Assembly: GCA_902778925.1 (NCBI GenBank)
Contig: CACYZN010000021.1
Location: 3,847 to 67,846, forward strand
Direction of reading: 5' to 3'
Length of the DNA: 64,000 nt
Source of the DNA: an uncultured Bacteroidota bacterium
Lineage (GTDB): Bacteria > Bacteroidota > Bacteroidia > Bacteroidales > P3
Below the pieces are notes generated by a model. It searched no databases, was not told the DNA's origin, and saw nothing but the letters and a program-made list of their open reading frames with translations. Below, piece after piece: positions 22,218-63,728 of this stretch. The position numbers and the translations under genes were made by a program. The first letter of the stretch is position 1; each line of letters begins with the position of its first letter.

Positions 22218-24395
22218 TTACTTTGCTACTATGAGTTTGCGAGCCACCTGGCTGTCGGCGCTGCGGAACACCACGGTGTAGTGGCCGGCGGCGAGGCGGG
22301 CGGTGTTGATGTTGTAGACGATGGTGCCCTGGGCGTCGAGCGACGAGGTGTGCACGGTGCGGCCCATGGCGTCGACGATGCTGACGGAGTAGGTCTGGCC
22401 GTCCTTAAGGTCGATCTGCATGCTGGCGCGGTCGGTGGCAGGGTTGGGGTAGAACTGGCCGAAGCCCTGTTCTATGGCGGCCTCGTCGATGCCGGCCAAC
22501 GGACGCTGGGTGCTGCTGTCAGCGGTAGCCCAGTCGCTGCCGAAGGTGAAGGTGATGTCTTCCATGGCCATCGGCATGGTGTCGTAGTCGAAGAACGAGC
22601 TGTCGAACACTATGTTGGTATCGGCAATGGTGCTGTATTGGAAGTTGTAGTAGCCACCCTGGCCTGCAGTCATGGGCTTGGTGATGGTCTTGCCGTTGTT
22701 GCTGGTGGCGCTGATGTAGTAGTCCACATTGACCACTGTGTCGGCCAAAAGCGGGATGGCGCCGTAGAAGCGGTTGTTGTTGGCGGCGAGGCTGACGGTA
22801 TGCCATGTGGTGTCGGGGCCGAAGGGCATGCGCCACATCACTTCGGCGTGGGCGATGCCGCTTTGGTTGGTGATGATGGCGCTGACGGGCAGCGATGCCA
22901 CGTTGCCGCCGGTATTGTAGTGGCCATATATGTTCTTATGCAGTATGCGGATGGGGTTCTCGGCGGGAATCTGCTTGGTGACGCAGTGGATGGCGCCGCC
23001 CGAGCCGTCGAAGGTGCGCACGTCGACCGGATAGATTGTGTAGCCGGGGTAGGCCTGATGGATGGCATCCATGTTGGCGCGGTCCCAGGCGGCCGAAGGC
23101 TCGCCGTTGACGACTTTGGAGAAGCAGGGCTGCAGTATGACGTTGTTCACGAACGTGTGGTTGGAGTAGGTGCGTGTGAACTGGCTATCGTACTCATCCT
23201 GGCTCTCGAAGTTGCCGCCGTTGTTGGTCGAGGGGAAGGGCAGGGTGGCCATGGTGTAGTAGTTGCGGCCGAAGACGCTCTGGTAGGAGCAGAGGGAGTC
23301 GATGTTGCGGGCGCCGGTCTGGTAGTCGTCCCACGACGAGTAGTCGTCGGGCATGACCGAGAAGACGAAGCCGTTCTCGTCGTAGGCGTCGGCATAGAGG
23401 TCTATGTGGCCGGTACCGCCGTCGTACTGGTAGGCGGGCAGTATGTAGGTGGCGCGCTGGCCTATGAGCGATTGCAGGGCCGCCTTCACCTGGCTCTGGT
23501 TGAGTGGTGTGACATGTTTGTAGTTGAGCGAGCTGATGTTGCGTCCGTTCCAGGTGAGCTGGCCGTACTGGTCGGCGTTGTTCGAGTAGAGGGCGTCGCT
23601 GGAGATGACCATGCCAGCGCCGTCGACCAGGCAGTTGCCGCCTTCCCACTCGATGTTGGTCTGCCAGTTGGGGATGCCTTTCTGCCACTGTATGATGGAG
23701 GGCAGCGAGTCGTCGAGGGCGCGACCGGGGTAGTAGGTGAAGTCGAGCATGCCGACCGAGTCTTGGTCGCCATAGTAGAAGCAGATGGGACCGCAGTCGC
23801 GGTACCAGAACGAGTTGCCGGGGCCGTAGAGGAATTTCACGTTGTCGTGGCGCAGGCCCATGCGCTCGAGGGTGCGGAGCACGATGGCCGAGTCGGAGGG
23901 ACGCTCTACGCGCACCCATGCCTCGGCACCGCCCAGCTGTATGCCGTCCATGAGGTAGAAGAAGACACGGCCGAAGGACGAGGTGGTGTCCATCTTGGCT
24001 ATGTAGTTGCCCATGCCGCGGTTTTGCCATCTGCCGTGCACGTACTCGTAGTATTCGGCATAGCCGTTGACCATGGGGTCGGCCGACCATGTGTAGCTGT
24101 TTTCGTGGCCGGGGACGGAATAGCTGTAGGAGGGTGTCACGACGATGGCCTGCACCTCTTCCCACTCGCCGGGGAACCACACGCGGTCTTCGGGCAGGCT
24201 TTTGGCGCCGCCCGCTTTGGCCATTTGCGGCTGGCCGAGGGGTATGTCGGTCTCGAGGTGGTGTTTGGACACGTCGCGTTTCTGCACTTGCTGGCGGAAG
24301 CTGCGTTGCAGCTCTTCGCGCGAAAGCTGTTCGCTTTGTGCCATGGTGCCGAGGCTCAGGGCCAGGGCTGCCAGTATGACGAGGGTCTTTTTCAT
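22218..24395 (-). CDS. Agmatine deiminase / Porphyromonas-type peptidylarginine deiminase family protein with T9SS type-A C-terminal sorting domain
   Basis: 725 aa with a signal peptide. The guanidino-modifying motifs are FWYRDCGPICF, EGGNCLVDGAGMV, GTGHIDLYADA and GGAIHCVTKQIP. The C-terminus is FYPNPATDRASMQIDL...GHYTVVFRS...KLIVAK. Confidence 0.75.
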   Translation of the reverse strand: MKKTLVILAALALSLGTMAQSEQLSREELQRSFRQQVQKRDVSKHHLETDIPLGQPQMAKAGGAKSLPEDRVWFPGEWEEVQAIVVTPSYSYSVPGHENSYTWSADPMVNGYAEYYEYVHGRWQNRGMGNYIAKMDTTSSFGRVFFYLMDGIQLGGAEAWVRVERPSDSAIVLRTLERMGLRHDNVKFLYGPGNSFWYRDCGPICFYYGDQDSVGMLDFTYYPGRALDDSLPSIIQWQKGIPNWQTNIEWEGGNCLVDGAGMVISSDALYSNNADQYGQLTWNGRNISSLNYKHVTPLNQSQVKAALQSLIGQRATYILPAYQYDGGTGHIDLYADAYDENGFVFSVMPDDYSSWDDYQTGARNIDSLCSYQSVFGRNYYTMATLPFPSTNNGGNFESQDEYDSQFTRTYSNHTFVNNVILQPCFSKVVNGEPSAAWDRANMDAIHQAYPGYTIYPVDVRTFDGSGGAIHCVTKQIPAENPIRILHKNIYGHYNTGGNVASLPVSAIITNQSGIAHAEVMWRMPFGPDTTWHTVSLAANNNRFYGAIPLLADTVVNVDYYISATSNNGKTITKPMTAGQGGYYNFQYSTIADTNIVFDSSFFDYDTMPMAMEDITFTFGSDWATADSSTQRPLAGIDEAAIEQGFGQFYPNPATDRASMQIDLKDGQTYSVSIVDAMGRTVHTSSLDAQGTIVYNINTARLAAGHYTVVFRSADSQVARKLIVAK

Positions 24396-24422: not shown

Positions 24423-25295
24423 TTAGCGTTTCTTGAGGCTCAGTATCTCGCGGGCTTCGTCGCTGGTGGCGATGGGGCGGCCGAGGAGTTTGGCCATGCG
24501 CACCACCTTGTCGACCAGCTCGCCGTTGCTCTTGGCCAGCACGCCGCGTTCGAGGTAGAGGTTGTCTTCGAAGCCCACGCGCACGTTGCCGCCCATGACG
24601 ATGGCGGGAGCGGCCAGTGTGAAGGCGTTGCGGCCGATGCCGGTGGCGGTCCAGGTGCTGCCGGCGGGTATGTTCTTCACCATCCACACCAGATTGTCGA
24701 CCGAGGCCGAGGCGCAGCCGAGCACGCCGAGCACGAAGTTGAACTGCATGGGCACCAGGGGCAGGGGCTGGCCGTCGGGGCCGGCTACGCCGAAGGCGCT
24801 GGGCACCTGGCCTTTGCGGGCCATGTGGACTATGGTCTCAAGGTGTCCCATCTCGAAGCACTCGTACTCGGGCTTGATGCCTTTCTCGATCATACGCTTG
24901 CCGAAGGCGCGCATGGTGGGCATGGTGTTGTCGAAGATGTCGTCGCCAAAGTTGCAGGTGCCGCAGTCGAGGGTGGCCATCTCGGGCACGGGGGTGGTGT
25001 TGGTCGAGTCCAGTCGCTCGTCGGGCGTCATGCCCACGGCACCGCCGGTCGAGGGGATAAGTATCACGTTGGGGCACTCTTTCAGTATGGCCTCGGTGCA
25101 CTCCTGGAAGCGCACGTGGCTCTGGGTGGGCGTGCCGTCGTCTTCGCGCACGTGCAGGTGCACGATGGCGGCGCCGGCGTCGACGGCGCTCTTGGCTTCG
25201 CGCACTATCTCTTCCACGGTGTAGGGCACGTTGGGGTTCTGCTCTTTGGTTACTTCGGCGCCGCAGATGGCGGCGGTGATTATCAGTTTCTCCAT
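24423..25295 (-). CDS. Beta-keto acid cleavage enzyme (BKACE/DUF849; 3-keto-5-aminohexanoate cleavage enzyme-like)
   Basis: ATG 25295 gives MEKLIITAAICGAEVTKEQNPNVPYTVEEIVREAKSAVDAGAAIVHLHVREDDGTPT, a typical BKACE N-terminus. Confidence 0.8.
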   Translation of the reverse strand: MEKLIITAAICGAEVTKEQNPNVPYTVEEIVREAKSAVDAGAAIVHLHVREDDGTPTQSHVRFQECTEAILKECPNVILIPSTGGAVGMTPDERLDSTNTTPVPEMATLDCGTCNFGDDIFDNTMPTMRAFGKRMIEKGIKPEYECFEMGHLETIVHMARKGQVPSAFGVAGPDGQPLPLVPMQFNFVLGVLGCASASVDNLVWMVKNIPAGSTWTATGIGRNAFTLAAPAIVMGGNVRVGFEDNLYLERGVLAKSNGELVDKVVRMAKLLGRPIATSDEAREILSLKKR

Positions 25296-25345
25296 GTTGT
25301 TGTATGTTTTATTATTACTAATCCGAACAATTTTCAATCAAGCGG

Positions 25346-25353
25346 CAAAAATA
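25346..25353 (-). promoter_or_regulatory. -7 box TATTTTTG for the BKACE operon
   Basis: Plus strand CAAAAATA lies about 50 nt upstream of ATG 25295. Confidence 0.45.
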
Positions 25354-25430
25354 CAAAAAAAAATACAATCGCAATAAAAAAAGTACTCCCCGGCCATCAA
25401 AAAGCCCTCGCGCCCCCCTCGGCACCCCGT

Positions 25431-25575
25431 CCCCTCCGCTTCCGGTGGCCTCGTTGTACTATTGTTGTACTATTGTTGTACTATCGTTGTACTATTGAAA
25501 ACATAAGAACGATAGTACAACGATAGTACAACAATAGTACAACGATAGTACAACGACCGGAGGAGGGGAAGGGGC
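25431..25575. repeat. AT-rich palindromic element built from 11-bp units, variant copy B (TYGTTGTACTA family)
   Basis: Left arm 25451-25495 is (T[C/T]GTTGTACTA)x4. Right arm 25512-25556 is its reverse complement with 44 of 45 positions matching. The 16-nt loop is TGAAAACATAAGAACG. CCGG and CCCCTCC/GGAGGGG brackets flank the arms. Confidence 0.9.
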
Positions 25576-25605
25576 TTTTTTTCTTACCGGATTAAGAATA
25601 ATTTG

Positions 25606-25613
25606 TATTTTTG
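25606..25613 (+). promoter_or_regulatory. -7 box TATTTTTG for the OmpA/caspase-like gene
   Basis: TAnnTTTG match 30 nt upstream of ATG 25643. Confidence 0.45.
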
Positions 25614-25642
25614 CACTTCGGATTTTGAACAACAACGACAGT

Positions 25643-27385
25643 ATGAAGAAGGTAGTAATTACAGTGTTAGCCCTTGTGGCGGCGGTGGCGGCATGGTGCC
25701 AGAACGGCGAAGTGCAGCTCAACCGCGAGTATCAGGCCGCTATACGCGAGTGGTTGGAACAGGATGTGGCCGGTCGCGGCCGTGCCATGCAGGAACGTGC
25801 CGAGCGCATGCTGCTGGCGCTGCCCAACGACGAGAAGCTCTACGACGAGGGGCTGGTGGCCATAGGCTCGCGCATCGAGGAGGGCGTCGGCGCCGACGGG
25901 CAGCCGGTGCTCAACTTTGTGTACGACATATCCTACAACTGCCGACACATGGAGGGCTACACCGACGACTACCCGCTGGGCCAATACCGCTGGGACGTGT
26001 CGAACTCGGCACGCGCCATGTGCCAGCTGACCAAGCAGTTTGTCGAGGGAGTGCTCGACGACCTGTTCCGCGCTGGCAAGGATGTCACCATCCGCATCAC
26101 CAGCTCGGCCGACGGCACCGACATCAGCGCCCCGATAGCCTACGGCGGCGAGTACGGCGACTTCCGCTACATGCCCACCGTCTTCAACGGCGAGCCCCTG
26201 CGCCTCTCGGTGAGCCGCCAGAGCGGCATAGCCAACAACGCCCAGCTGGCCTACGTGCGCGCCCAGTCGGTGCGCCACTACCTGGAGACCGAGGTGCGCA
26301 ACCTGGCGCAGACGCGCAACCGCTACGAGTACATCACCCGGTCGTACATAGATACCGGCGCACAGTACCGCCGCTCGAGCATCGAGCTGGTGGTGCACGA
26401 CGCCTTCCGCGAGACCATCGACCTGATGACGGCCGACAAGATACAGGACGACTATGTCGACTTCAACGTGCCGCAGGCCGCGGGCAGCTACGAGGAGGCC
26501 TATGTGCTGATACTCTGCAACGACGAGTACCGCCTGCCCTTCCTGCCCTCGGTGCCCTTCGCCATGAACGACGCCAACATGGTGCGCCGCTACTTCACCC
26601 GCGCCCTCGGCGTGCCCGAACGGCATGTGAAGATGCTGCATGGCGCCACCAAGCAGGCCGTGCTCGACGAGGGTGTGCACTGGCTCACCGACCTCTCGCA
26701 GGCCGTGGCAGGCCACAAGGGCGACGCCCTCGACCCCCAGATGGATGTCTACATTTACTACGTGGGCTTGGGCTACACCGACTACGACGGCAAGGGCTAC
26801 CTGGTGCCCGACGGCTTCGAGGTGAGCAATATCAAGTCGCTGGCTGTGAACAAGAAAGGCAAGGCCCCCTACATGGGCGCCGACGGCCGGGTGAACTACG
26901 ACATACCCCTCTCGGGCAAGGAGAGCGGCCGCCTGACCAAGGGACTGCTGGGCATCGACGAGCTGCTCGGCAAGTTCAAGGGCTTCCCCATACGCCGACT
27001 GACCATGGTGATAGACGCCAGCTTCGACGGCAACCAGCGCAACGGCCAGCCCATGCTACGCGCCGACCGCAAGATAGACACCAAGAAGAAGAAACGCCGC
27101 CGTATGAACCTGCGCAGCGACGCCGTGGTGCTCATGGCCGCCGACCTGGACCGCACGGCCTACGCCTTCGACGCCCAGCACCACGGTTTCCTCACCTACT
27201 TCCTGCTGAAGGAGGTGAAGGGCGCTGCCGGCCGCATGGACGAGTGCACCTATGGCGACCTGTACGACGCCATAGAGCGCAAGGTGAACAAGGAATCGGC
27301 CCTGCAGGGCCGCTGGCAGGAAGTGGGCGGCGCCGCCGGTGGCCGCTACAAGGATAGCTGGCGCGGGTTGAAGATAGAAAAGTAA
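25643..27385 (+). CDS. Secreted OmpA-like domain / caspase-like (peptidase C14 fold) fusion protein, predicted catalytically inactive
   Basis: ATG 25643 gives MKKVVITVLALVAAVAAWCQ. The OmpA-like block is VTIRITSSADGTD...NNAQLAYVRAQSVRHYL. The C14-like block is YVLILCNDEY...MNDANMVRRYF...VYIYYVGLGYTDYDGKGYLVPDG...MVIDASFDG...HHGFLTYFLLKEV. Confidence 0.6.
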   Translation: MKKVVITVLALVAAVAAWCQNGEVQLNREYQAAIREWLEQDVAGRGRAMQERAERMLLALPNDEKLYDEGLVAIGSRIEEGVGADGQPVLNFVYDISYNCRHMEGYTDDYPLGQYRWDVSNSARAMCQLTKQFVEGVLDDLFRAGKDVTIRITSSADGTDISAPIAYGGEYGDFRYMPTVFNGEPLRLSVSRQSGIANNAQLAYVRAQSVRHYLETEVRNLAQTRNRYEYITRSYIDTGAQYRRSSIELVVHDAFRETIDLMTADKIQDDYVDFNVPQAAGSYEEAYVLILCNDEYRLPFLPSVPFAMNDANMVRRYFTRALGVPERHVKMLHGATKQAVLDEGVHWLTDLSQAVAGHKGDALDPQMDVYIYYVGLGYTDYDGKGYLVPDGFEVSNIKSLAVNKKGKAPYMGADGRVNYDIPLSGKESGRLTKGLLGIDELLGKFKGFPIRRLTMVIDASFDGNQRNGQPMLRADRKIDTKKKKRRRMNLRSDAVVLMAADLDRTAYAFDAQHHGFLTYFLLKEVKGAAGRMDECTYGDLYDAIERKVNKESALQGRWQEVGGAAGGRYKDSWRGLKIEK

Positions 27386-27389
27386 CCCT

Positions 27390-28637
27390 TTAGTTTATAG
27401 GCTGCACAAGGTTGCGCAGCTGCTCGATGTCGAGCTGCTGGTAGGTGATCACCTCGGGATTGGCGAAGTTGGTCTGGTTGGCCGTGTAGGTCTCGCGGTC
27501 GTACTCGGTGGCTTTGTCGAACAGGGCTTTGGCCACGACCCGGCGCAGGTGGTCGAAGTCGAGCCGTCCGGCCTGGTACTGCTCCACGTCGCTCTCCGAC
27601 AGATACTTCTTCACCTTCTCGAACTGTGCTTCGGGCAGCTGGCCGTTCTCGTCCAGGCTGCGCTCGAGGGCCGGGAAGTCGACCCACGAGGTGATGGTGG
27701 TCTCGAGCAGGGCCAGTTGCTTGCGGTTGCGGTCGGTGTAGTAGCCCAGGTAGGCGTGGCAGGGCTCGACGAAGATGACGGGTTTGAGGCCTATCTTGCG
27801 CAGTATGGAGGCGAAGAAGACGCAGGCGTCGATGCAGTTGGCCTGACGCGAGGCCCACACCTCGTCAAAGAAGCGTATGTGCTGCACGTTGGCGCGCGGC
27901 GAGGGGTTGGAGGTGCACGAGATGGACGAGTAGGTGATGCCGCGGGCCAGGGCGTAGTACCACACGGCAAAGACCTGGTCGCGCACGTTCTGGGCACCGT
28001 TCTGGTAGCCCGAGAGGCGCGATACGTTGCCCTGTGCCACGATGTCGGTCAGTATCTGCTCGATCTGGGGGTGGTCTTCGTTGACGTAGGCGGCGAAGAG
28101 CCAGCGGAAGTCGTGGGTCTGTCCGTTGTAGGCCAGCGAGAGGGGGCACTCGTTGACGGTGCGGTAGGCGAGGTGCAGGTTCTTGATGTCGACTTCCTCG
28201 TCGTTGATGAAGCAGGTGAAGGTGAGGTCGACGGCACCGGGATGGCGCAGGTTGCGCAGCACCTGGTATTTCCACTTCAGCGAGGGTGCGAAGGTATACT
28301 GCTGGCCGCGGTGGGGCAGTATCTCCTGGAATATGGTAACGTAGTTGAGGGCCGACGAGTCGACGACCACGCGCAGCACGGCGTTGTCGGCTGGGGCGGT
28401 CAGGGTGATGGTGAACTCGGGCGCTGTCTGCTGGGCTGTGTTGGCCGAGCTGTTCTGGTGGGTCGAGTTGTTGAGGCCGAGTATGAGCGAGGGGTACAGC
28501 TGGCCGTCGAAGAGGGGGTTGTATTGCGCCGTGAAGCTCACCTGACGTGGGTCGAAGAGCTTGGCGCGCGGCGACTGGCAGGCGACGGCCAGCAGCGCGA
28601 CGGCGACGCCGAGCAGTAAGGACCGTTTCATGTTCAT
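27390..28637 (-). CDS. Lipoprotein with transglutaminase-like (papain-fold Cys-His) core
   Basis: ATG 28637 overlaps the ruvC stop (ATGA). The lipobox is LLAVAC. The core motif is RQANCIDACVFFASILRKIGLKPVIFVEPCHAYLGYY...LLETT. The upstream 305 codons of track ORF 27390..29552 are Arg/Pro-rich and non-coding. Confidence 0.6.
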   Translation of the reverse strand: MNMKRSLLLGVAVALLAVACQSPRAKLFDPRQVSFTAQYNPLFDGQLYPSLILGLNNSTHQNSSANTAQQTAPEFTITLTAPADNAVLRVVVDSSALNYVTIFQEILPHRGQQYTFAPSLKWKYQVLRNLRHPGAVDLTFTCFINDEEVDIKNLHLAYRTVNECPLSLAYNGQTHDFRWLFAAYVNEDHPQIEQILTDIVAQGNVSRLSGYQNGAQNVRDQVFAVWYYALARGITYSSISCTSNPSPRANVQHIRFFDEVWASRQANCIDACVFFASILRKIGLKPVIFVEPCHAYLGYYTDRNRKQLALLETTITSWVDFPALERSLDENGQLPEAQFEKVKKYLSESDVEQYQAGRLDFDHLRRVVAKALFDKATEYDRETYTANQTNFANPEVITYQQLDIEQLRNLVQPIN

Positions 28638-39272: not shown

Positions 39273-39423
39273 CTCCCCTCCGCTTCCCCTCCGGTAGTTC
39301 TTATGTACTTCTTATGTATTTCTTATGTATTTCTTATGTTTTAAACATAAATACAACATAAGAAATACATAAGAACGACATAGGGCGGGGAAGGGGTGGA
39401 AAACGGGGGCGTGGAGAGTGGGT
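39273..39423. repeat. AT-rich palindromic element built from 11-bp units, copy C, with C-rich left and G-rich right flanks
   Basis: CTCCCCTCCGCTTCCCCTCCGG, then a TTCTTATGTA-unit palindrome, then GGGCGGGGAAGGGGTGGAAAACGGGGGCGTGGAGAGTGGG. Confidence 0.9.
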
Positions 39424-63482: not shown

Positions 63483-63577
63483 CAACCTTTTTTTCAATTG
63501 GCAGTGCTTTTTTTTGAGCCATGTTTCAACATTTTTTCAACCACCTTCACCCCGTCCTCACCTCTATCGCTCCCCAT

Positions 63578-63728
63578 CCCCTCCGGTAGTTCTTATGTAC
63601 TTCTTATGTATTTCTTATGTATTTCTTATGTTTTAAACATAAATACAACATAAGAAATACATAAGAAATACATAAGAACGGCAGGACCGGAACCGGTGGG
63701 GAACGGTAGGGGTGGCAGGGTGGCGGGC
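63578..63728. repeat. AT-rich palindromic element built from 11-bp units, copy E, with a G-quadruplex-type right flank
   Basis: CCCCTCCGG, then the TTCTTATGTA-unit palindrome (the right arm has one extra ATACATAAGAA unit), then GGCAGGACCGGAACCGGTGGGGAACGGTAGGGGTGGCAGGGTGGCGGGC. Confidence 0.9.

What the first reader, a model, noticed from the sequence alone, without database searches (positions are those of the whole stretch)
25643..27385. Secreted OmpA-like / caspase-fold fusion in which both catalytic dyad positions appear substituted (a pseudo-caspase)
The C-terminal half matches the peptidase C14 pattern block by block: YVLILCNDEY, MNDANMVRRYF, VYIYYVGLGYTDYDGKGYLVPDG, LTMVIDASFDG and HHGFLTYFLLKEV. 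Where caspase-family proteins have G-H-G, this protein has G-L-G (Leu codon 26768-26770). Where they have D-x-C, it has D-A-S (Ser codon 27020-27022). The N-terminal half has an OmpA_C-like peptidoglycan-binding pattern: VTIRITSSADGTD...NNAQLAYVRAQSVRHYL. A periplasmic, wall-anchored and probably inactive caspase-fold module suggests a binding, scaffold or sensor role rather than proteolysis. The gene is transcribed from its own promoter next to palindrome copy B. It ends 4 nt from the convergent transglutaminase-like lipoprotein gene.
Basis: partly seen in the sequence, partly recalled or inferred. Interest (0 to 1): 0.65.

Follow-up and report, generated by a model that had tools for sequence, protein, structure and literature searches.

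The report
Secreted protease-dead bacterial caspase homologue
This gene from an uncultured cattle-gut Bacteroidales bacterium encodes an exported caspase-like protein that has lost both catalytic residues yet is very strongly conserved, so it most likely binds something instead of cutting it.

Summary
ORF 25643-27385 (+) encodes a 580-aa protein whose C-terminal half is a Peptidase_C14 domain (Pfam above its gathering score; Foldseek finds MALT1, caspases and metacaspases). Alignment with 143 outgroup relatives (His 141/143, Cys 142/143) and with MALT1 puts window Leu376 on the catalytic His and Ser460 on the catalytic Cys.

In the 205 family members aligned (all loci from uncultured rumen or hindgut Bacteroidales MAGs), the Cys column is never Cys (S/G/N/T). 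His was lost about 10 separate times, including in the window's lineage. The gene is not decaying: dN/dS is about 0.05 overall and 0.02 in the dead caspase domain. The S1-pocket aspartates (D310, D458), R466 and H514-G-F never change.

The N-terminal "OmpA-like" claim is only weakly supported. Pfam OmpA stays below threshold (14.6 bits, 24.7 after cutting out an inserted hairpin), and fold matches to MotB, OmpA and SiiA are marginal. The peptidoglycan-binding motif and its Asp/Arg pair are, however, invariant.

Best reading: a Sec-exported, probably wall-associated pseudo-orthocaspase that binds basic ligands without cleaving them. This is a new variant of a known kind (pseudo-orthocaspases are described but rare in Bacteroidetes). 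The neighbour's "transglutaminase-like" label is unsupported.

The parts
25643..27385 (+). Complete gene: 580-aa exported pseudo-orthocaspase (ATG start, TAA stop)
   Evidence: about 260 full-length homologues
25606..25613 (+). Bacteroidetes-type -7 promoter box TATTTTTG, about 30 nt before the ATG (consensus match only)
   Evidence: TTTGTAT[CT]TTTGCA conserved before the ATG in 10 relatives
25643..25699 (+). Predicted Sec/SPI signal peptide (MKK, hydrophobic core, cleavage before Gln20)
   Evidence: read from the sequence; Q20 at least 90% conserved, consensus AQxGE; Bacteroidetes Q-rule (PMC5837995)
25703..25816 (+). Long N-terminal helix of the mature protein (residues 21-58)
   Evidence: AF2 secondary structure
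25820..26443 (+). N-module alpha/beta domain (residues about 60-267), putatively OmpA/MotB-like
26111..26113 (+). Asp157 at the end of strand VTIRITSSAD; corresponds to the 'TD' Asp of OmpA_C; zero-change
26123..26224 (+). Beta-hairpin insertion (residues 161-194) that splits the OmpA-like core
   Evidence: AF2 strands 174-181 and 184-190; excising it raises the Pfam OmpA score
26237..26284 (+). Motif N199-xx-L-A-xx-R206-A-xx-V-xxx-L214, matching the OmpA-like NxxLSxxRAxxVxxxL motif with Ser to Ala
26495..27367 (+). Peptidase_C14 (caspase/hemoglobinase-fold) domain, catalytically dead
26570..26572 (+). Asp310, S1-pocket aspartate (equivalent of TbMC2 D95); zero-change in the family and 143/143 in outgroups
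   Evidence: PMC6426788
26768..26770 (+). Leu376 (TTG) at the catalytic His column
26816..26953 (+). Family-specific insertion (residues about 392-437) after the His strand, absent from active outgroups
27014..27016 (+). Asp458, S1-pocket aspartate two residues before the former Cys (equivalent of TbMC2 D211); zero-change
   Evidence: PMC6426788
27020..27022 (+). Ser460 (AGC) at the catalytic Cys column
27050..27118 (+). Polybasic linker after the Cys strand (K481-KKKRRR-487), low pLDDT; position of the caspase intersubunit (L2) linker
27182..27190 (+). His514-Gly-Phe, invariant in the family and in active outgroups (HG[LMF]FTY)
25399..25580 (.). Nested palindrome in the divergent promoter region (context only; its function is not established)

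Best explanation
The gene encodes a Sec-exported, catalytically dead member of the bacterial caspase-homologue (orthocaspase, Peptidase C14) superfamily, that is, a pseudo-protease.

Shown: the caspase fold; replacement of the catalytic His by Leu and of the catalytic Cys by Ser; absence of Cys at that column in all 205 family members aligned; very strong purifying selection; and retention of the two acidic S1-pocket aspartates and other cleft residues that the active relatives also have.

Inferred: after signal-peptide removal the protein stays in the periplasm. Its N-terminal module, a divergent OmpA/MotB-like alpha/beta domain that keeps the Asp/Arg pair used by OmpA-like domains to hold the diaminopimelate of peptidoglycan, attaches it non-covalently to the cell wall. 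The dead caspase domain uses its preserved acidic pocket and substrate groove to bind an Arg/Lys-containing segment without cleaving it. That segment could belong to another envelope protein or to its own family-specific polybasic linker. The protein would therefore act as a binding, scaffold or sensor module and not as a protease.
For: - C14 membership and fold.
- Dyad columns: outgroups have H141/143 and C142/143, against window L376/S460. MALT1 YYAGHGY and LLDMCRK align to the same columns.
- Family-wide counts: Cys column S162/G37/N5/T1 and never Cys; His column H188 with 17 replacements. There were about 10 independent His changes and 12 changes at the Cys column. Both rank at the 31st-36th percentile of variability, while D310, D458, R466, H514-G-F, T518, Y519, E551, Q555 and Q559 never change.
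- Only small residues are ever found at the former Cys column, and AGY/TCN serine codons switch repeatedly. This fits a pocket that must stay open.
- Selection: median omega 0.048 for the whole gene, 0.066 for the N-module and 0.022 for the C14 domain.
- S1-pocket identity of the two Asp residues: PMC6426788, citing McLuskey 2012.
- Export: conserved MKK, hydrophobic core and A-Q, which fits the Q-rule (PMC5837995). Relative P0131 carries an outer-membrane beta-barrel in front of the same N-module and caspase domain.
- N-module: the best folds are MotB, OmpA and SiiA peptidoglycan-binding domains. OmpA is the top Pfam hit in 8 of 8 hairpin-excised constructs, reaching E=3e-5. The motif N..L[SA]..RA..V...L is present in 171/205 members, 0 other ORFs and 0 shuffles. 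D157, N199, L202, R206 and R243 are invariant and shared with active paralogues.
- Transcription: low-depth metatranscriptome contigs with 0-2 mismatches.
Against: - No experiment exists. Binding, the ligand, localisation and lack of activity are all inferred.
- The OmpA-like assignment is below every formal threshold: Pfam 14.6 and 24.7 bits against 27.2; Foldseek E>=0.025 with TM<0.5; hhalign probability 1.5%. Generic alpha/beta sandwiches (DUF1185, PurM) score similarly.
- The model coordinates and PAE were not available to me, so I could not check whether the pocket is open or whether the polybasic linker reaches it.
- His is still kept in 92% of the family and Ser in 79%, so some residual chemistry in H/S members is not excluded.
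- The gene neighbourhood gives no functional hint, because the neighbours are unrelated housekeeping genes.
- RNA evidence is thin and could include DNA carry-over.
Confidence: 0.6

Rival explanations
1. It is still a hydrolase. Ser460 has taken over as nucleophile, a Cys-to-Ser swap on the caspase fold. In most family members His376 would be the base; in the window protein another base, such as the invariant His514, would be needed.
For: - 147 of 196 distinct family sequences are His/Ser.
- Serine is re-encoded repeatedly by AGY and TCN codons, a pattern seen at functionally important serines.
- The pocket residues and H514 are invariant.
- The domain is under very strong constraint.
Against: - The window protein has Leu at the His column.
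- 43 of 205 members have Gly, Asn or Thr at the nucleophile column, and 32 keep His next to Gly, so the family's conserved function needs no nucleophile.
- H514 is equally invariant in the Cys-bearing outgroups, so it is an ancestral cleft residue and not a newly recruited base.
- The two former dyad columns are far more variable than the pocket residues.
Confidence: 0.07
2. It is a dead caspase homologue, but not wall-anchored. The N-module is an unrelated alpha/beta domain with its own ligand, and the protein is a soluble periplasmic or vesicle-borne binder.
For: - OmpA homology is not significant by Pfam, Foldseek or hhalign.
- The N-module has many invariant polar residues outside the OmpA motif (LPNxxKLYDE, TDDY, SNS, YGEYGD), which suggests a specific site of its own.
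Against: - The three best annotated fold hits are all OmpA-type peptidoglycan-binding domains.
- Excising the hairpin gives OmpA as the top Pfam family in all 8 constructs.
- The canonical motif and the Asp/Arg pair are invariant and are shared with paralogues, one of which follows an outer-membrane beta-barrel exactly as OmpA_C does.
Confidence: 0.25
3. It is a FLIP-like regulator. The dead protein pairs with an active paralogue that has the same N-module plus an intact His/Cys dyad, and modulates its activity.
For: - Intact-dyad paralogues with the same N-module exist in gut Bacteroidales: P0132 (whose cluster includes a 'Ca. Limimorpha caballi' protein), P0134, P0131 and P0257.
- Caspase-fold proteins commonly act as dimers, and the pseudo-caspase cFLIP(L) regulates caspase-8 in this way (PMC7586951).
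Against: - There is no second C14 gene in the window or within 8 kb of any of the family loci.
- The active paralogues lie in unrelated gene clusters.
- Co-occurrence in one genome was not shown.
Confidence: 0.08
4. It is a decaying, functionless relic of a protease gene.
For: Both catalytic residues are gone.
Against: - The reading frame is intact and full length across the family loci from species-level genomes.
- Omega is 0.02-0.07.
- 22 zero-change columns lie in the C-domain.
- Metatranscriptome contigs match the gene.
Confidence: 0.01

Closest known systems
Bacterial pseudo-orthocaspases (Klemencic et al. 2019, PMC6426788; SyOC of Synechocystis, PMC7889975)
   Same: A prokaryotic C14 p20-type domain with the His/Cys dyad substituted while the two acidic S1-pocket aspartates are kept, and presumed to act by binding. 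One sub-clade of this family (L075, L078, L081, L084) even shows the Tyr/Asn pair described in cyanobacteria.
   Different: - Described pseudo-variants are about 90% alphaproteobacterial or cyanobacterial and mostly Tyr/Ser. Only 10 of 1078 Bacteroidetes sequences were pseudo-variants.
- This family is His/Ser ancestrally and Leu/Ser in the window.
- It is Sec-exported and carries a roughly 260-aa N-module unknown to Pfam.
- It has a family-specific insertion and a polybasic linker.
Active Bacteroidota orthocaspases with the motifs YYAGHGIPD / DACFSG / HGLFTY (outgroup)
   Same: 26-35% identity over the domain and the same cleft residues (D310, D458, R466, H514, Y519). Some share the N-module.
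   Different: They keep His and Cys (141 and 142 of 143), lack the insertion of about 35-45 residues and the polybasic linker, and sit in other gene clusters.
MALT1 paracaspase, metacaspases (Yca1, AtMC4/9) and caspases
   Same: Best structural matches, E=1e-9 to 1e-5. The profile aligns the dyad segments.
   Different: They are eukaryotic, cytosolic, active cysteine proteases, with sequence identity of only 8-15%.
cFLIP(L), the human pseudo-caspase (PMC7586951), and TbMCA4 (Tyr/Ser pseudo-metacaspase, cited in PMC6426788)
   Same: A caspase fold retained without the nucleophile, with function through protein-protein interaction.
   Different: No evidence here of pairing with an active partner. 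This protein is in a different cellular compartment and kingdom.
OmpA_C / MotB_C / Pal peptidoglycan-binding domains (PF00691)
   Same: The beta-alpha-beta-alpha-beta-beta order of elements; the strand ending in Asp; the helix motif NxxL(S/A)xxRAxxVxxxL; RRxxIE on the last strand; marginal fold hits to MotB, OmpA and SiiA.
   Different: Below the Pfam gathering score. There is a roughly 34-residue hairpin between the Asp and the helix, an extra N-terminal hairpin and a long helix, and Ser is replaced by Ala in the motif. Homology is not demonstrated.

Membership tests
Peptidase C14 (caspase/metacaspase/orthocaspase) superfamily, PF00656 | Significant match to the family profile above the curated cut-off | tested here: met
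   32.1 bits against GA 21.4; 18/18 family members hit it; 7,473 relatives at E<=1e-3
Peptidase C14 superfamily | Caspase/hemoglobinase fold | tested here: met
   Foldseek finds MALT1 at E=1.7e-9, plus caspase-8, CED-3, metacaspases and legumain
Peptidase C14 as an active cysteine protease | Catalytic His after the third core strand (G-H-G) | tested here: not met
   Leu376 (TTG) at the column where outgroups have His 141/143 and MALT1 has YYAGHGY
Peptidase C14 as an active cysteine protease | Catalytic Cys (D-x-C) | tested here: not met
   Ser460 (AGC); never Cys in 205 family members; outgroups have Cys 142/143
Metacaspase/orthocaspase-type specificity pocket | Two acidic S1 residues (TbMC2 D95 and D211 equivalents) | tested here: met
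   D310 and D458 are zero-change in the family and 143/143 in outgroups. The mapping is by motif position (CxxD and DxC), following PMC6426788
Pseudo-orthocaspase (sensu Klemencic 2019) | Prokaryotic p20-type domain with the His/Cys dyad substituted | tested here: met
Pseudo-orthocaspase (sensu Klemencic 2019) | Absence of a metacaspase-type p10 domain | not tested
   No p10-specific profile was available. The Pfam match runs to profile position 215 of 233
Pseudo-orthocaspase | Lack of proteolytic activity | not testable with these tools
   Needs an enzyme assay
OmpA_C-like peptidoglycan-binding domain, PF00691 | Profile match above the curated cut-off | tested here: not met
   14.6 bits native and 24.7 bits after hairpin excision, against GA 27.2; 2/18 members at E<=1; hhalign probability 1.5% against a small OmpA_C profile
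OmpA_C-like domain | OmpA/MotB-type alpha/beta fold | tested here: inconclusive
   MotB_C 2zvz E=0.025 (TM 0.33/0.45), OmpA_C 5ves E=0.089, SiiA 6qvp E=0.11; no hit at E<1e-3
OmpA_C-like domain | Motif NxxLSxxRAxxVxxxL with the DAP-binding Asp and Arg | tested here: met
   N199..L214 with Ser replaced by Ala; present in 171/205 members and 0 of about 3,500 other ORFs or shuffles; D157 and R206 are zero-change. The role of these residues comes from general knowledge of OmpA-like domains
OmpA_C-like domain | Binding to peptidoglycan | not testable with these tools
   Needs a sacculus pull-down
NCBIfam NF047832, caspase of the EACC1-associated type | Score above the curated cut-off | tested here: not met
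   25 bits against a cut-off of 140
Known anti-phage defence proteins (PADLOC) | Any model match | tested here: not met
   No hit at E<=0.01

The most novel reading that the evidence does not exclude
The caspase fold has been repurposed as a periplasmic receptor. The wall-tethered dead domain would use its intact acidic S1 pocket to read out a basic ligand. Candidates are the free amine of un-cross-linked peptidoglycan stem peptides, a Lys/Arg tail of an envelope protein, or its own polybasic linker acting as a displaceable pseudo-substrate. It would thereby sense or scaffold envelope state. A second, less likely novel reading is that the His/Ser majority of the family are nucleophile-swapped serine hydrolases on a caspase fold, with the window's Leu/Ser protein a secondarily dead derivative.
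Probability: 0.15. Interest if true: 0.6.

Novelty: new variant of a known kind. Interest (0 to 1): 0.4.

Why it matters
Pseudo-proteases of the caspase fold are known in animals (cFLIP), trypanosomes and a few bacterial groups, but what bacterial pseudo-orthocaspases do is still largely unknown. This family has several features that make it a clean case to study:
- It is an exported lineage, restricted to rumen and hindgut Bacteroidales.
- The nucleophile was lost once and the general base was then lost about ten separate times.
- The pocket and the whole domain nonetheless stay under extreme constraint (omega about 0.02).
- Intact-dyad paralogues with the same accessory module are available for direct comparison.

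That combination suits a study of how a protease scaffold becomes a binding module. It also defines a conserved N-terminal module of about 260 residues that Pfam does not yet describe. The finding does not open a new category of system.

Tried and rejected
- Sequence searches of the protein, the family profile and an active paralogue against PDB sequences gave nothing useful. Only a mixed family/outgroup profile reached MALT1 and the metacaspases.
- One search's column counts were off by one residue because hmmalign --trim removed the first residue. They were discarded and redone. The N-module hits stand.
- Guilt by association failed. The neighbours (PAD_porph with a T9SS tail, BKACE, an unknown lipoprotein, RuvC, RseC, a WG-repeat protein) are functionally unrelated, and synteny reflects lineage rather than an operon.
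- No second C14 gene lies nearby. There was no PADLOC match, and NCBIfam gave only a weak EACC1-type hit.
- Intact-dyad N-module proteins turned out to be paralogues in other clusters, not positional orthologues.
- The sigma-70 promoter scan found nothing, as expected for Bacteroidota. The Bacteroidetes -7 consensus is not enriched window-wide (22 found, 17 expected), so the promoter call rests on position and on conservation across relatives.
- The neighbour's 'transglutaminase-like' label was not confirmed.
Full report
**1. What is at the coordinates**

The window has an ORF at 25643-27385 on the + strand (ATG start, TAA stop, 580 aa). The two codons named are exact: Leu376 is TTG at 26768-26770 and Ser460 is AGC at 27020-27022. 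The stop codon of the convergent gene (27390-27392) lies 4 nt beyond this gene's stop.

**2. The C-terminal half is a caspase-fold domain**

Pfam PF00656 (Peptidase_C14) matches residues 287-552 at 32.1 bits, above its gathering score of 21.4. All 18 family C-domains tested hit it, the best at E=1e-15. An AlphaFold2 model built on a 36-sequence alignment (pLDDT 84.6) finds MALT1 paracaspase at E=1.7e-9, followed by caspase-8, CED-3, yeast and plant metacaspases and legumain. A profile of the domain finds 7,473 proteins at E<=1e-3 among 1.84 billion representatives.

**3. Both dyad positions are substituted**

- The 143 nearest outgroup representatives carry the motifs YYAGHGIPD and FLDACFSG. 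In an hmmalign to the family profile, the column of window L376 is His in 141 of 143 and the column of S460 is Cys in 142 of 143. The counts were off by one residue and were discarded.
- An independent MAFFT alignment gives the same columns.
- A profile of that alignment hits MALT1 at E=1.3e-5. It places aGhG on MALT1 YYAGHGY and DAcF on MALT1 LLDMCRK. From general knowledge, these are the segments that hold MALT1's catalytic His415 and Cys464.
- In the model, L376 and S460 each lie two residues past a core beta-strand (367-374 and 450-458), in blocks with pLDDT 94-96.

**4.

About 260 full-length homologues exist. The genome scan found 94 encoding loci, and all 80 that were listed come from uncultured Bacteroidales MAGs of rumen or herbivore hindgut, including 'bacterium P3' and Candidatus Colimorpha. 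The window's own sequence is found in bovine gut metagenomes.

Across 205 aligned members, the Cys column is Ser 162, Gly 37, Asn 5, Thr 1 and never Cys. The His column is His 188, Leu 9, Tyr 4, Asn 2, Gln 1, Phe 1.

On a neighbour-joining tree the root state is His/Ser. The His column changed about 10 times and the Cys column about 12 times. This places them at the 31st and 36th percentile of variability for the domain. In contrast, D310, G375, D458, R466, H514-G515-F516, T518, Y519, E551, Q555 and Q559 never change. Those same cleft residues are conserved in the active outgroups.

D310 and D458 correspond by motif position to the two aspartates that form the basic-residue S1 pocket of metacaspases (PMC6426788, citing McLuskey 2012).

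Only small residues ever occupy the former Cys column, and serine is re-encoded repeatedly by AGY and TCN codons. The simplest reading is that the position must stay small so the pocket stays open, but that no nucleophile is required.

**5. The gene is functional, not decaying**

Nei-Gojobori estimates on 40 close pairs give a median omega of 0.048 for the whole gene, 0.066 for the N-module and 0.022 for the dead caspase domain. Metatranscriptome contigs from bovine gut samples match pieces of the gene with 0-2 mismatches at low depth. This is weak evidence of transcription, because DNA carry-over is possible.

**6. The N-terminal half**

The first 19 residues look like a Sec/SPI signal peptide: MKK, a hydrophobic core, then cleavage before a Gln that is at least 90% conserved. 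This fits the Bacteroidetes Q-rule (PMC5837995). There is no lipobox across the family and no T9SS C-terminal domain.

Residues 21-58 are modelled as one long helix, and residues about 60-267 as an alpha/beta domain.

The evidence for the OmpA-like reading is mixed.

Against it:
- Pfam OmpA scores 14.6 bits against a gathering score of 27.2, over residues 194-216 only.
- Only 2 of 18 members reach E<=1.
- hhalign against a small OmpA_C profile is not significant.
- Foldseek on the isolated module (pLDDT 81.8, pTM 0.81) has no hit below E=0.02. Unrelated alpha/beta sandwiches score similarly.

For it:
- The best annotated fold hits are all OmpA-type wall-binding domains: MotB_C E=0.025, OmpA_C E=0.089, SiiA E=0.11.
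- The helix carries N199-xx-L-A-xx-R-A-xx-V-xxx-L214, the classical OmpA-like motif with Ser replaced by Ala. That motif is present in 171 of 205 members, in none of about 3,500 other ORFs, and in none of 50 shuffles of 895,000 residues.
- Cutting out the modelled hairpin (residues 161-194), which separates the strand-end Asp157 from that helix, makes OmpA the top Pfam family in all 8 constructs from 4 members. The window rises to 24.7 bits (E=3e-5), and the alignment then covers the strand, the Asp and the helix.
- D157, N199, L202, R206 and R243 never change, and they are shared with the intact-dyad paralogues.
- One paralogue, P0131, has an outer-membrane beta-barrel (PF13568) in front of this module and the caspase domain. 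That is the OmpA layout, and it puts both domains in the periplasm.

I therefore treat OmpA/MotB-like wall binding as probable (about 0.6) but unproven.

**7. Relatives with an intact dyad**

The N-module HMM also finds P0132, P0134, P0257 and P0131 (His and Cys intact) and P0133 (Asn/Cys). The P0132 cluster includes a protein from 'Candidatus Limimorpha caballi'. So the two-domain architecture predates the loss of catalysis.

These proteins lie in different, co-directional clusters of unknown genes with FGE-sulfatase and a weak DUF4384 hit. They are paralogues, not positional orthologues.

Compared with them, the pseudo-family has gained:
- an insertion of about 35-45 residues after the His strand (residues about 392-437);
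- a polybasic linker after the Cys strand (K481-R487);
- the LPNxxKLYDE motif;
- a Cys100/Cys127 pair.

**8. Genomic context**

The neighbours are a PAD_porph enzyme with a T9SS sorting tail, a BKACE enzyme, an unknown 415-aa lipoprotein, RuvC, RseC and a WG-repeat protein.

Across the loci the ancestral order is WG, RseC, (RuvC, lipoprotein), C14, BKACE, PAD, all on one strand. The window's clade shares an inversion of the C14 gene alone. No functional operon emerges from this, and there is no second C14 gene nearby.

The gene has a Bacteroidetes-type -7 box (TATTTTTG, 25606-25613) about 30 nt before the ATG. TTTGTAT[CT]TTTGCA is conserved at that position in 10 relatives.

The neighbour called 'transglutaminase-like' has no Pfam hit at E<=10 and no PDB sequence hit.

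**9. Mechanism proposed**

Shown: a caspase fold without its dyad, a preserved acidic pocket and cleft, and extreme purifying selection.

Inferred: export to the periplasm, non-covalent attachment to peptidoglycan through the N-module, and non-cleaving binding of an Arg/Lys-containing segment by the dead domain. Possible partners are another envelope protein or the protein's own polybasic linker.

Rivals:
- A Ser460-based hydrolase (0.07). The Leu at the base position, and Gly/Asn at the nucleophile column in a fifth of the family, argue against it.
- A soluble binder that is not wall-anchored (0.25).
- A FLIP-like partner of an active paralogue (0.08). Co-occurrence in one genome was not shown.
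- A relic (0.01). The dN/dS result refutes it.

**10. Comparison with what is known, and novelty**

Pseudo-orthocaspases are a described class. They make up 8.6% of bacterial orthocaspases, are mostly Tyr/Ser variants, and about 90% are in Alphaproteobacteria and Cyanobacteria. Only 10 of 1078 Bacteroidetes sequences are pseudo-variants, and the S1 aspartates are conserved (PMC6426788). Caspase homologues fused to peptidoglycan-binding domains have also been catalogued (PMC3501461). Public annotation calls members of this family simply 'caspase family protein'.

The present family is therefore a new variant of a known kind. It is exported, restricted to Bacteroidales, ancestrally His/Ser and Leu/Ser in the window. 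It has an undescribed N-module and family-specific loops.

It is a solid finding of moderate interest (0.4), not a new category.

Noticed in passing
window 25338-25642: The intergenic region between BKACE(-) and C14(+) is a nested palindrome. It has an outer perfect 13-nt inverted repeat (25345-25357 / 25602-25614), each arm holding a -7-like box TATTTTTG, which gives mirror-image divergent promoters. There is a G/C-rich middle pair (25399-25422 / 25557-25580). The core has 45-nt arms (25451-25495 / 25512-25556), each made of four tandem 11-mers GTTGTACTATY, around a 16-nt loop.
   Followed up: partly
window 39302-39382 and 63577-63691: Two more palindromes built from tandem 11-mers (TTCTTATGTAT type) lie in intergenic regions that also contain TAnnTTTG boxes. 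This looks like a recurring class of tandem-repeat palindromes near promoters in this genome.
   Followed up: no
L085 1-182; also L086, L006, L040, L019, L005, L036: The 99%-identical relative carries the same palindrome with five 11-mer copies in its arm instead of four, and its contig ends inside the loop. Many contigs of this clade stop 130-500 nt upstream of the gene, and several have other tandem-repeat or palindromic arrays there (for example GTTCTTCAGTY in L019). The arrays appear to vary in copy number and to break short-read assemblies.
   Followed up: partly
window 24423-28637 compared with L001, L021-L039: The C14 gene alone is inverted relative to the ancestral co-directional order lipoprotein, C14, BKACE, PAD. 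The inversion is shared by the window's clade (L005, L006, L009, L011-L013, L016, L019, L036, L040, L041). No flanking inverted repeats that could explain it were seen at the 3' end.
   Followed up: partly
window 24423-25292 (-): The BKACE (beta-keto acid cleavage enzyme) neighbour is 86-98% identical in protein sequence across loci whose C14, PAD and lipoprotein genes are only 40-70% identical. It is either unusually constrained or has been exchanged between lineages.
   Followed up: no
window 27390-28637 (-): This is a conserved 415-aa predicted lipoprotein (LAVAC lipobox) with no Pfam or PDB sequence match. It lies next to the C14 gene in 30 of 84 loci, and in L001 it lies next to a PorP/SprF and PorE-like pair.
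   Followed up: partly
window 22218-24395 (-): A Porphyromonas-type peptidylarginine deiminase homologue with a T9SS C-terminal sorting domain. It is syntenic with BKACE in many loci.
   Followed up: no
family alignment, column of S460 (window 27020-27022): Serine at the former Cys column is encoded by AGY in 44 loci and by TCN in 27, with repeated switches even between close relatives (L020 AGT, L017 TCG). This is a 'two serines' pattern at a position that also tolerates Gly and Asn.
   Followed up: partly
L089-L092 (paralogues P0286, P0270): Intact-dyad proteins with the same N-module sit in co-directional clusters of uncharacterised genes: a 498-aa and a 167-aa protein, a 255-276-aa protein with a weak DUF4384 hit, then one or two FGE-sulfatase genes. 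This may be an undescribed envelope system built around an active orthocaspase.
   Followed up: no
P0131 (821 aa), P0128, P0147, P0185: The same orthocaspase clade is fused to very different N-terminal parts in Bacteroidota: an outer-membrane beta-barrel, thioredoxin-like domains, GH43 plus CBM6, MORN repeats and Sel1/TPR. So it behaves as a promiscuous C-terminal module of exported proteins.
   Followed up: no
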